Assembly (NCBI RefSeq): GCF_009914755.1
Contig: NC_060926.1
From: the human T2T-CHM13v2.0 reference genome, Homo sapiens
Direction: 5' to 3' (one strand)
Length of the DNA stretch: 64,000 nt
This document shows, piece by piece, positions 12,559 through 15,992 of the stretch. The position numbers were made by a program, and so were the translations under genes. The first letter of the stretch is position 1; every line of letters starts with the position of its first letter. A model generated the notes under the pieces. That model did not search any database. It saw only the letters and a program-made list of their open reading frames with translations, and was not told the DNA's origin.

Positions 12559-13727
12559 TTACTGTTGAGCCAAGCATAGATAACTGCTTGAAAGACAGTG
12601 CATGTTATACTGTATAATTCCTAATAAACCTCAATAAACTTTTTTTTTTCCAATAAACTTTTTTTGACTCTGAATACAAAGTCTAAGTCAGGTTTTGTGG
12701 CTCATGCCGGTAATCTCTGCACTTTGGGAGGTTGAGGTGGGAGGATATCTTGAGGCCAGGACTTTGAGACCAGCCTGGGCAACAGAACCAGACCCCCATC
12801 TCTACCAACAAAACAAAACAAAGTCTATAGTTGTACTAAAGAAATTTCTAAGCAAGTAATAGTAAACAGAAGCAGTTTTAAAATTTATAACCAATTGCTT
12901 TCAAATCCTGATTCACAGACATGCTTGTCTTGCAGACAGGTGTTCAATAAGCTAATTACATACTGTTTATTCCTATGAAAGCAGGGCCAGTACAAGGCCA
13001 GGCTTTGTTAATCTGGTTACCATGAAAAAATAATAGTACTGTATACTATTTCCATAGACTATTCTACTTTCTACTGAACACTCTTTCTCTAAGAACAGGC
13101 AACCAATTCTTTTCACTAAATGTCAGTCCAAATCAGGGAGATTTTACTGTGCAGAGAACTTTTATTCCTGCTGATTCTTGTTGAAATCACATTCACCCAC
13201 ATAAGTTTCTGCCTCTAGAAATCTGTTAAATTTAGATTACATTCTCAGATTGTTTGAATATGAAAACTACTTTCTTCAAATATTGTAATATTTCCTAATA
13301 TGAAATATTAGTTATTAACATGTTACTATTGTTAAATTTTAAAAATATTATTAGTTTAGGAAAGGGGAGTAATTCATAAGCCTTTTACAGCAGTTTTCAA
13401 AATGTATCTGCATTTTCTACATTTGGTATTTCCAGATAAATATTAAAGAAAAAGTTCCCTTTTTAATCGTACTTCTCTCACCATTTCAGTTTCACTTTTA
13501 AGTCATTATCACCATTTGAGCTTGGATGTGAAAACGTTAAAACAAGAAAGGAAAAAAAATTTAAATGTTTTGCACATTAGTCTATTTTGTTTGTTTTTTT
13601 GTTTTTAAGGCAGGGCAAGAAGTGGGCAGACCTCAGACTCCGCCTCCTGGACCCCAACTTCCCCCTCTGCCACACCAATATTCTATTTTTAATATAAATA
13701 AGTAGTCTATGCTAAAAAATACTAGTC

Positions 13728-14028
13728 TTTTTTTTTTTTTAATTTTATTTTTTGAGACAGAGTCTTGCTCTGTCGCCCAGGCTGGAGTGCAGTGGCACGA
13801 TCTTGGCTCACTACAACCTCTGCCTCCCAGGTTCAAGTGATTCTTGTGCCCCAGCCTCCAAAGTATTATAGGCATGAGCCACCATGCCCAGCTAATCTTT
13901 GTAATATTAGTAGAGACGGGGTCTCGCCATCTTGGCCAGGCCGGTCTCGAACTCCCGACCTAAAGTGATCCACCCAACTTGGCATCCCAAAGTGCTGGGA
14001 TTACAGGTGTGAGCCACCATGCCTGGCC
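13728..14028 (-). mobile_element. Diverged Alu immediately 3' of the SVA (probable transduced sequence)
   Basis: Alu dimer with A-tail, lying inside the TSD pair 13717-13730 / 15566-15579. Confidence 0.85.
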
Positions 14029-14040
14029 TATAGTCTATTC

Positions 14041-15565
14041 TTTTTTTTTTTTTTTTTTAATTGATCATTCTTGGGTGTTTCTCACAGAGGGGCATTTGGC
14101 AGGGTCATAGGACAATAGTGGAGGGAAGGTCAGCAGATAAACAAGTGAACAAAGGTCTCTGGTTTTCCTAGGCAGAGGACCCTGCGGCCCTCCGCAGTGT
14201 TTGTGTCCCTGGGTACTTGAGATTAGGGAGTGGTGATGACTCTTAACGAGCATGCTGCCTTCAAGCATCTGTTTAACAAAGCACATCTTGCACCGCCCTT
14301 AATCCATTTAACCCTGAGTGGACACAGCACATGTTTCAGAGAGCACAGGGTTGGGGGTAAGGTCATAGATCAACAGGATCCCAAGGCAGAAGAATTTTTC
14401 TTAGTACAGAACAAAATGAAAAGTCTCCCATGTCTACTTCTTTCTACACAGACACAGCAACCATCCGATTTCTCAATCTTTTCCCTACCTTTCCCCCTTT
14501 TCTATTCCACAAAACCGCCATTGTCATCATGGCCCGTTCTCAATGAGCTGTTGGGTACACCTCCCAGACGGGGTGGTGGCCGGGCAGAGGGGCTCCTCAC
14601 TTCCCAGTAGGGGCGGCCAGGCAGAGGCGCCCCTCACCTCCCGGACGGGGCGGCTGGCCGGGCGGGGGGCTGACCCCCCCCACCTCCCTCCTGGACGGGG
14701 CGGCTGGCCGGGCGGGGGCTGACCCCCTACCTCCCTCCCGGATGGGGCGGCTGGCCTGGCGGGGGCTGACCCCCACCTCCTTCCCGGACGGGGTGGCTGC
14801 CGGGCGGAGACGCTCCTCACTTCCCAGACGGGGCGGCTGCCGGGCGGAGGGGCTCCTCACTTCTCAGACGGGGCGGCCGGGCAGCGACGCTCCTCACCTC
14901 CCAGAAGGGGCAGCGGGACAGAGGCGCTCCCCACATCTCAGACGATGGGCGGCCGGGCAGAGACGCTCCTCACTTCCTAGATGGGATGGCGGCCGGGCAG
15001 AGACGCTCCTCACTTTCCAGACTGGGCAGCCAGGCAGAGGGGCTCCTCACATCCCAGACGATGGGCACCCAGGCAGAAACGCTCCTCACTTCCCAGACGG
15101 GGTGGCGGCCGGGCAGAGGCTGCAATCTCGGCACTTTGGGAGGCCAAGGCAGGCGGCTGGGAGGTGGAGGTTGTAGCGAGCCGAGATCACTCCTGGGCAC
15201 CATTGAGCACTGAGTGAACGAGACTCCGTCTGCAATCCCAGCACCTCAGGAGGCCGAGGCTGGCGGATCATTCGCGGTTAGGAGCTGGAGACCAGCCGGG
15301 CCAACACAGTGAAACCCCGTCTCCACCAAAAAAATACGAAAACCAGTCAGGCGTGGCGGCGCACGCCTGCAGTCGCAGGCACTGGGCAGGCTGAGGCAGG
15401 AGAATCAGGCAGGGAGGTTGCAGTGAGCCGAGATGGCAGCAGTACAGTCCAGCTTCGGCTCGGCATTAGAGGGAGACCGTGGAAAGAGAGGGAGAGGGAG
15501 ACCGTGGGGAGAGGAAGAGGGAGAGGGGGAGGGGGAGGGGGGGAGGGAGAGGGAGAGGGAGAGCC
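14041..15565 (-). mobile_element. Full-length SVA retrotransposon
   Basis: On the minus strand: (CCCTCT)n hexamer at about 15490-15562, Alu-like region, GC-rich VNTR at about 14560-15120, SINE-R, poly(A) at 14041-14058. Confidence 0.97.
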
Positions 15566-15992
15566 AAATACTAGTCTTTAATATATATTTATGTATGTGC
15601 TGTGTATGTGTGTACTGTAGGTCAAGCCAAACGGCTATGTTCAGTTTTTCTTTTTCAACATTTCATGATTTTCTGTTTCCTCTAGAATGCTGTTAGGACA
15701 TTCTGGGAAGGAAGAGGCATGTTCATAATTCTTTCATACTGTATTAAGAAATTAATTTCTCATTAGCCAAGTACAGGAGAACCATCAGTACTAAAAGATG
15801 AGAGGCTAGAGACAGCAATAGTTAAAGAACTGCAGTGCTTTGACCAACTTCAAGAGTGAAACTAGGAAAAGGAATAACGTGATGTAGGAATGCCCCACTG
15901 ATACAAATATTACCTAAATGGATGGTTTAGGTGTGTAAAACAATCTAGGTAATGGTGAGGTTTTCTGAGGAATGTTACATTGTATTATGAAA

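What the first reader, a model, noticed from the sequence alone, without database searches (positions are those of the whole stretch)
13717..15579. SVA and adjacent Alu share one TSD: probable SVA-mediated 3' transduction upstream of SRSF7
Seen: a perfect 14-bp repeat AAATACTAGTCTTT at 13717-13730 and 15566-15579 brackets SVA + 12-nt spacer (14029-14040) + diverged Alu. The minus-strand target reads TT|AAAG, like an L1 endonuclease site. No TSD flanks the SVA alone. The SVA ends in ATTAAA, while the Alu tail carries AATAAA (13749-13744). Inference: read-through from a source SVA carried the downstream Alu, and the spacer GAATAGACTATA tags the source locus.
Basis: partly seen in the sequence, partly recalled or inferred. 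Interest (0 to 1): 0.7.

Follow-up and report, generated by a model that had tools for sequence, protein, structure and literature searches.

The report
SVA carrying Alu from chromosome 11
A jumping element (SVA) next to the SRSF7 gene carries a copy of one particular Alu repeat from chromosome 11, where no SVA sits in this genome; it was likely copied from a parent SVA that has since been lost, a known process of modest interest.

Summary
One 14-bp target-site duplication (13717-13730, 15566-15579) encloses a full-length SVA, its A18 tail, a 12-nt spacer and an old Alu, all on the minus strand. Spacer plus Alu has one near-identical copy among the hits scored: contig C11:119,167,163-474 (97%; the next best Alus are 83-86%), about 1.9 kb upstream of an ABCG-type gene promoter. 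So the Alu is a passenger, and 'Alu resident first' is very unlikely. But the donor site has no SVA in this assembly, no sibling shares the passenger, and the AATAAA is too close to the tail to be a normal signal. A published table lists the SVA as SVA_D1, shared with chimpanzee and absent in gorilla. Best reading (0.65): read-through from a source SVA since lost. Rivals: the Alu retrocopied later into the SVA's A-tail (0.18; the donor junction matches the TSD at 7 of 8 nt), or a template switch (0.12). Three derived A>G changes in the passenger weakly suggest ADAR editing. A related SVA on C3 has 14 A>G among 17 changes. This is a new case of a known kind.

The parts
15566..15579 (-). TSD, copy at the element's 5' side (minus strand AAAGACTAGTATTT, preceded by TT)
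15468..15565 (-). SVA 5' end: GG, then the CT-rich hexamer region. A 5' G is attributed to the RNA cap for another SVA in PMC6139936 Fig. 5; several relatives also begin with G.
15120..15467 (-). SVA Alu-like (antisense Alu) domain, with a private 14-nt deletion near 15192
14576..15119 (-). SVA VNTR, about 540 nt of 37-40 and 47-50 nt units
14056..14575 (-). VNTR end plus SINE-R, ending in the variant signal ATTAAA (14061-14056); 98.3-99.2% identical to the 29 closest relatives
   Evidence: listed as hs_SVA_D1 in PMC6139936 supplement 2
14041..14058 (-). SVA poly(A), A18; its last two A also match the donor
14029..14040 (-). 12-nt spacer, the upstream flank of the donor Alu on C11 (11 of 12 nt; 13 of 14 counting the two A before it)
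13754..14028 (-). Passenger Alu body, AluS-type (AluSx/Sz label recalled). It has 7 differences from the C11 donor. With its tail it shares 26 alignment columns with the donor that depart from the majority of 36 other Alus, 7 of them one deletion.
13731..13753 (-). Passenger tail: donor-templated A-rich start containing AATAAA (13749-13744), then an A-run (13 A with the three inside the TSD) where the donor has a 14-nt (TAAA)n-type tract
13717..13730 (-). TSD, copy at the element's 3' side
13996..14747 (.). RefSeq enhancer lying wholly inside the insertion (Alu 5' end, spacer, SINE-R, VNTR end), 3.7-4.5 kb upstream of the SRSF7 start (10281); target gene not tested
   Evidence: annotation added by the hub; positions compared

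Best explanation
This is a full-length SVA with L1-type insertion marks that carries a spacer and Alu copied from chromosome 11, likely as a 3' read-through (transduction) from a parent SVA that probably once sat at that site and was later lost. Shown: one TSD around everything, the single donor locus, no SVA at the donor in this assembly, and (from a published table) SVA_D1 shared with chimpanzee and absent in gorilla. Inferred: an SVA_D1 inserted at the TC|AAGA site 14 nt in front of the old Alu on C11. RNA polymerase II started at its 5' end and passed the weak ATTAAA into the spacer and Alu. L1 ORF2p nicked TT|AAAG here, primed in or at the Alu's A-rich tail and copied the whole 1.8-kb RNA. 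The parent allele never fixed, or was sorted out in the human-chimp ancestral population.
For: One 14-bp TSD and an endonuclease-type target. Donor identity is 97% against 83-86% for the other full-length hits among the 40 candidates scored of 8655. An internal 34-nt pattern finds exactly 2 places in the genome at up to 3 mismatches. The junction falls on TC|AAGA: 5 of 16 credible TSDs of relatives start with AAGA, one exactly TC|AAGA, while only 16 of 3022 donor positions (16 of 190 AA starts) are YY|AARA. The needed geometry occurs naturally: relative L059 sits directly in front of a sense Alu outside its TSD (1 of 29), as does the SVA_F1 source H10_1 (PMC3287187, passages). The signal is the weak ATTAAA. 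Lost sources are ordinary: 16% of transduction-carrying polymorphic SVAs had no identifiable source (PMC12593883, passages), and SVA_D sources were lost by lineage sorting (PMC6139936). Only about 2 changes fall on the donor side, which fits an age like the SVA's (inference).
Against: No SVA at the donor in this assembly. No row at the expected chr11 place among the rows seen in the SVA_D table (first 30 of 164 chr11 places, which cover the chimp D1 rows, plus prefix searches; gorilla contigs cannot be mapped). No sibling offspring. The AATAAA is too close to the tail, and priming within the first 20 nt of an Alu tail was rare in culture (PMC3415434, passages). The donor junction is the only 7-of-8 match to TSD bases 2-9 in 1.8 kb of donor sequence, and only 69 of 3447 AAGA sites have TAG at that offset; this model must treat that as chance. 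The A>G changes lie only in the Alu (3 of 80 A) and not in the SVA arm (0 of about 50 A), although the two arms are predicted to pair over about 200 bp (p about 0.15).
Confidence: 0.65

Rival explanations
1. Two insertions, SVA first. The SVA inserted normally. Later an RNA from the C11 Alu (a Pol III transcript starting a few bases early, or a Pol II transcript running away from the ABCG-type promoter) was retrotransposed into the SVA's tail. The nick would be at the TT|AAAA that the ATTAAA variant creates. The long T-run would prime on the donor's A-rich tract, and the 5' end would join by microhomology. The hidden second TSD would be A-run + AAAGA.TAG (16-19 nt).
For: It explains the missing source and the 7-of-8 match between TSD and donor junction. 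It explains an A13 run replacing a 14-nt A-rich donor tract. It also explains A>G only in the Alu, because the donor Alu has an inverted Alu 36 nt upstream and is predicted to form a 227-bp hairpin in its own RNA. The donor appears to keep A- and B-box motifs (motif consensus recalled).
Against: The prior is very low: an old, short-tailed, much-mutated AluS must move with at least 6 nt of upstream flank and hit a 20-30 nt target (my rough estimate: hundreds of times rarer than lost-source transduction; not computed from data). The base at the mismatch (A) fits neither the TSD (C) nor the donor (G). The divergence from the donor suggests it is not much younger than the SVA.
Confidence: 0.18
2. 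One insertion with a template switch. ORF2p began on a C11 Pol II RNA at the Alu tail, copied the Alu and 14 nt of the hairpin loop, then jumped from the T-rich cDNA end onto the poly(A) of an unrelated SVA_D1 RNA.
For: No source SVA is needed. The junction lies in the loop of the predicted donor hairpin. The donor lies about 1.9 kb upstream of a CpG-island promoter and points away from it. An SVA template-switch chimera has been proposed for SVA-CKS1B (PMC12593883, passages).
Against: It is rare: one proposed case in that set of 543. The microhomology is only 2 nt. It does not explain why the junction sits on an endonuclease-type site or the TSD likeness. Divergent transcription over the donor was not tested.
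Confidence: 0.12
3. The Alu was resident at this site and the SVA inserted later at its 5' end.
For: The spacer resembles the TSD, and TAGTCTAT recurs at 13578 and 13703.
Against: The spacer matches the C11 flank. The C11 copy is embedded between older Alus with no TSD of its own, so it is the donor. The SVA has no TSD repeated after its tail.
Confidence: 0.02
4. The SVA at C11:119.079-119.080 Mb (L066), 88 kb from the donor on the same strand, is the parent, joined to the Alu through an 11-nt homology.
For: Its 3' flank matches the chr2 junction at 11 of 11 nt where the donor matches 10 of 11. Such closeness is unlikely by chance (roughly 1e-4, post hoc estimate).
Against: It differs from the chr2 SVA throughout: 96.7% with 2 gaps over VNTR end plus SINE-R, against 98.3-99.2% for relatives, with a different VNTR and a different deletion. 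Its tail has GG, which chr2 lacks. It lies downstream of the Alu. The search also gave one non-SVA hit and one control hit.
Confidence: 0.01

Closest known systems
SVA-mediated 3' transduction (Xing et al. 2006, citation only; PMC12593883 passages and discussion; PMC9311842 passages; bioRxiv 10.1101/2021.07.12.451456 passages: 55 high-confidence SVA 3' events in CHM13)
   Same: Non-SVA sequence between the SVA poly(A) and the 3' TSD, traced to another chromosome. The length (about 310 nt) is near the reported 3' median of 258 bp. The SVA signal is weak.
   Different: No source SVA at the origin in this assembly; the event predates the human-chimp split; single offspring; no properly spaced downstream signal.
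SVA_F1 H10_1 with 3'-transduced AluSp (PMC3287187, passages)
   Same: SVA + A-tail + sense Alu at the 3' end of one mobilised unit. In culture the Alu raised mobilisation about 25-fold in that paper, and 2-fold or less in the study it cites.
   Different: Here it is SVA_D1 with an intact Alu-like domain, so a long SVA-Alu duplex is predicted. It ends in the Alu tail instead of beyond the Alu's TSD, and it founded no family.
hs_SVA_D1 (Damert 2018, PMC6139936 supplement 2)
   Same: This element is the row hg19 chr2:38982415-38982908, with chimp orthologue chr2A:39,322,508-39,323,001 and absent in gorGor5. The mapping uses a recalled SRSF7 offset and gives the expected start to the base.
   Different: The row carries no remark on a passenger or its origin.
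Template-switch chimeric retrocopies (SVA-CKS1B, PMC12593883 passages)
   Same: An SVA joined to RNA from an unrelated locus with no SVA at the origin.
   Different: Here an intact SVA poly(A) separates the parts, and the junction is endonuclease-site-like.

Membership tests
SVA retrotransposon | Hexamer region, antisense Alu-like domain, VNTR, SINE-R and poly(A), in that order | tested here: met
SVA_D1 subfamily | Assignment by SINE-R diagnostic substitutions | tested here: met
   Taken from the published assignment at matching coordinates, not re-derived. Three close relatives on C11 fall at positions consistent with D1 rows.
L1-mediated (TPRT) insertion | TSD of 7-20 bp, endonuclease-type target, 3' A-tail | tested here: met
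   14-bp TSD, TT|AAAG, A-run
SVA 3' transduction, operational definition (PMC12593883) | Non-SVA sequence inside the TSDs, 3' of the SVA tail | tested here: met
   13731-14040
SVA 3' transduction, operational definition (PMC12593883) | The passenger maps to one origin locus that lacks the pure poly(A) | tested here: met
   C11:119,167,163-474
Read-through transduction with confirmed source | A source SVA directly upstream of the origin, whose TSD is found in the passenger | tested here: not met
   No SVA in 19.5 kb around the donor in this assembly. It is therefore not filed as source-confirmed.
Read-through transduction with confirmed source | A source SVA at the orthologous site in apes or other human haplotypes | not testable with these tools
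   No ape genomes held. Table and supplement searches found no row there but are incomplete.
Read-through transduction with confirmed source | A downstream poly(A) signal 10-30 nt before the tail (spacing recalled) | tested here: not met
   AATAAA lies 3-6 nt from the end; internal priming is more likely
ADAR-edited retrocopy | Cluster of derived A>G on the RNA strand in a duplex, on both arms | tested here: inconclusive
   3 A>G of 5-6 derived changes in the Alu (p 0.002-0.05 under assumed rates), 0 in the SVA arm. Ape outgroups are lacking.

The most novel reading that the evidence does not exclude
The passenger Alu is a fossil of ADAR-edited double-stranded RNA written back into the germ line, and it reached this SVA from a hairpin RNA made at the C11 promoter by a second insertion or a template switch, not by read-through. 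Together with the hyper-edited SVA on C3 (14 A>G of 17 changes) and a three-fold excess of A>G over T>C in the Alu-like domain of SVA_D relatives, this would make A-to-I editing a direct, heritable source of SVA and Alu sequence change.
Probability: 0.2. Interest if true: 0.6.

Novelty: new member of a known kind. Interest (0 to 1): 0.32.

Why it matters
As a single event it matters little: SVA 3' passengers, including Alus, are well described. It does give an exact address for an extinct SVA source (or for a rare alternative route) that one look at ape assemblies can test. It also shows that the RefSeq enhancer 3.7-4.5 kb upstream of SRSF7 lies wholly within DNA gained around the human-chimp ancestor. 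The side result, A>G clusters confined to the Alu-like domain of genomic SVA copies, bears on a point a 2016 review called undetermined (a role of ADAR editing in retrotransposon evolution; PMC4982230, passages) and can be tested genome-wide.

Tried and rejected
Siblings sharing the 14-nt deletion: none (self plus one unrelated 2-mismatch hit; the other 39 of 40 scored are 92-93%). SVA ends followed by the spacer: 3 hits, namely self, a non-SVA site and L066, with 1 control hit; L066 was rejected as parent. None of 29 close relatives has the spacer. The reverse direction (C11 derived from chr2) was rejected: no TSD at C11 and older repeats on both sides. The AATAAA as the signal used was judged unlikely. 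ADAR editing of the SVA arm was not seen. TSD calling on relatives: 29 examined, 7 lacked a 5' end, 3 gave none and 3 calls of 8 nt or less were dropped, leaving 16. Literature on this locus: the search SVA+SRSF7+retrotransposon listed 4 papers, none about it by title or abstract start (listing only). Supplement searches of PMC12593883 and PMC6191304 (only 27,318 characters held, so uninformative) found nothing. Xing 2006 and Carmi 2011 are not held, and bioRxiv supplements are closed, so their event lists could already contain this locus or edited SVAs. Searches for ADAR-edited genomic SVA copies listed nothing on point by title or abstract start.

Full report
Observation. The 14-bp repeat is exact at 13717-13730 and 15566-15579, cannot be extended, and has no other exact copy in the window. 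On the minus strand it encloses GG, a CT-rich hexamer region, the Alu-like domain, about 540 nt of VNTR, SINE-R ending ATTAAA, A18, the 12-nt spacer, a sense Alu, an A-rich tail with AATAAA and an A-run. The target reads TT|AAAG.

The SVA. The VNTR end plus SINE-R is 98.3-99.2% identical to its 29 closest fetched relatives. Supplement 2 of PMC6139936 lists hs_SVA_D1 at hg19 chr2:38982415-38982908, with a chimpanzee orthologue and 'absent' in gorGor5. With a recalled SRSF7 offset this is window 14058-14551. The insertion therefore dates to about the human-chimp ancestor. ATTAAA is shared by 5 of the 29 relatives; none has the spacer. A 14-nt deletion in the Alu-like domain is private.

The passenger. 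A 22-nt junction pattern found the window itself, one 1-mismatch hit and seven 2-mismatch hits. The 1-mismatch hit, C11:119,167,163-474 on the minus strand, is 97% identical over spacer, Alu and the start of the tail. The other full-length Alu hits among 40 scored of 8655 candidates are 83-86%, and an internal 34-nt pattern occurs at exactly these two places. The two copies share 26 columns that depart from the majority of 36 other Alus, including a 7-nt deletion. The C11 copy lies between an inverted Alu 36 nt upstream and a further Alu arm downstream, with no TSD of its own, so it is the donor. It sits about 1.9 kb upstream of a CpG island and points away from it. The first coding exon there matches ABCG1 structures at E 1.6e-6; by position it is ABCG4 (name recalled).

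The missing source. No VNTR or SINE-R sequence lies within 19.5 kb around the donor. The first 30 of 164 chr11 places in the SVA_D table, which cover the chimp D1 rows, and number-prefix searches show no row at the expected place. Gorilla rows use contig names and could not be placed, and comma-formatted numbers would be missed. The supplements of a 2025 catalogue of polymorphic SVAs gave no hit. So read-through cannot be shown directly. It remains the likeliest route for three reasons. The junction sits on TC|AAGA, a typical SVA target (5 of 16 credible TSDs of relatives start with AAGA; 16 of 3022 donor positions are YY|AARA). One of 29 relatives has exactly the source geometry, an SVA in front of a sense Alu (L059). 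And lost sources are common in print (PMC12593883: 84% of transductions traced, the rest inferred without an SVA; PMC6139936).

What does not fit. The AATAAA ends 3-6 nt before the templated sequence stops, so internal priming on the A-rich tail with slippage is more plausible than cleavage at that signal. PMC3415434 documents both, but found priming in the first 20 nt of a tail rare (passages). The donor junction is the single 7-of-8 match to TSD bases 2-9 in 1.8 kb of donor sequence, and 2% of AAGA sites share that pattern. This would be expected if the Alu RNA had inserted later into the SVA's tail, with a hidden TSD of A-run plus AAAGA.TAG and 5' microhomology. That model also accounts for an A13 run in place of a 14-nt A-rich donor tract. 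Its prior is far lower by my rough estimate, which is not computed from data, so I give it 0.18. A template switch gets 0.12 and read-through from a lost source 0.65. An SVA 88 kb from the donor (L066) has a flank matching the junction at 11 of 11 nt but is a different SVA throughout. I leave its closeness unexplained.

Editing. Of 8 differences in spacer and Alu body, the chr2 copy carries 3 derived A>G (13956, 13942, 13897), one G>T and one CpG G>A. The donor carries one CpG change and probably one more, and one cannot be polarised. Three or more A>G has p 0.002-0.05 under assumed rates, noticed after the fact. The whole element is predicted to fold the Alu against the SVA's Alu-like domain (about 200 long-range pairs), yet that arm has 0 A>G among 9 changes (p about 0.15). 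The donor Alu would instead pair with its own inverted neighbour (227 pairs), which mildly favours the two rivals. The case that edited RNA can be fixed is much stronger in a relative. L037 on C3 has 14 A>G of 17 changes in the Alu-like domain and 0 of 3 in SINE-R (binomial 4e-13 against the other 23), with no close relative among 40 scored (95% or less). The other 23 show A>G at 1.3% per A against T>C at 0.4% per T (Fisher p 0.008; shared changes were not collapsed). These relatives were chosen for SINE-R likeness, so comparisons between domains are biased, but the A>G versus T>C contrast within the domain is not.

Papers seen. PMC6139936: part 1 of 5, passages, and supplement 2 (part 1 and searches). 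PMC12593883: passages, first part of the discussion, and a supplement search. PMC9311842, PMC3287187, PMC3415434, PMC4982230 and bioRxiv 10.1101/2021.07.12.451456: passages. PMC6191304: listing and a supplement search. Xing 2006 and Carmi 2011: citations only. Their lists, and closed bioRxiv supplements, may already hold this event or edited SVAs. I found no description of this passenger or its donor, and none of ADAR-edited genomic SVAs (listings only).

Verdict. The feature is real, and it is an SVA 3' passenger by the operational definition, with its origin now identified but its source element absent. It is a new member of a known kind; interest 0.32.

Noticed in passing
L037 (G000:C3:187820045-187820409, minus strand): An SVA with 14 A>G among 17 changes in its Alu-like domain and none in SINE-R; the nearest relative is 95%. 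It looks like ADAR hyper-editing fixed by retrotransposition. It sits in L1-like sequence with no Alu in the 900 nt 3' of it.
   Followed up: partly
Alu-like domains of 23 other SVA relatives (from L031-L059): A>G 15 against T>C 8, three-fold higher per base (Fisher p 0.008). L055 has 5 A>G of 6 changes in SINE-R.
   Followed up: partly
L066 1490-2880 (G000:C11, about 119,079,000-119,080,320, minus strand): A full-length, apparently older SVA with its own 14-bp TSD, about 1.3 kb upstream of a CpG-island promoter and 88 kb from the donor. Its 3' flank matches the chr2 junction at 11 of 11 nt. Unexplained.
   Followed up: partly
L057, L048, L052, L051: Relatives whose TSD lies 38-128 nt past SINE-R with non-A sequence in between, probably short 3' transductions. 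L057 has a mutated signal (AGTAAA) and about 100 nt of passenger.
   Followed up: no
L002 1522-1085, minus strand: The donor Alu is followed by a third, 3'-truncated Alu arm, and TAGACTATA before and TAGACCATA after bracket the whole unit: possibly a TSD remnant, which would make the spacer the old Alu's own target site.
   Followed up: no
window 13578-13585, 13703-13710, 14031-14038 (also 13054-13061, minus): TAGTCTAT occurs 4 times within 1 kb of the junction (5 in the window; shuffle mean 1.33, 2 of 100 shuffles reach 5). Unexplained.
   Followed up: partly
L059, L046, L047, L050: SVA relatives with sense Alu sequence shortly 3' of their tails, i.e. candidate sources for Alu-ending read-through.
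   Followed up: no
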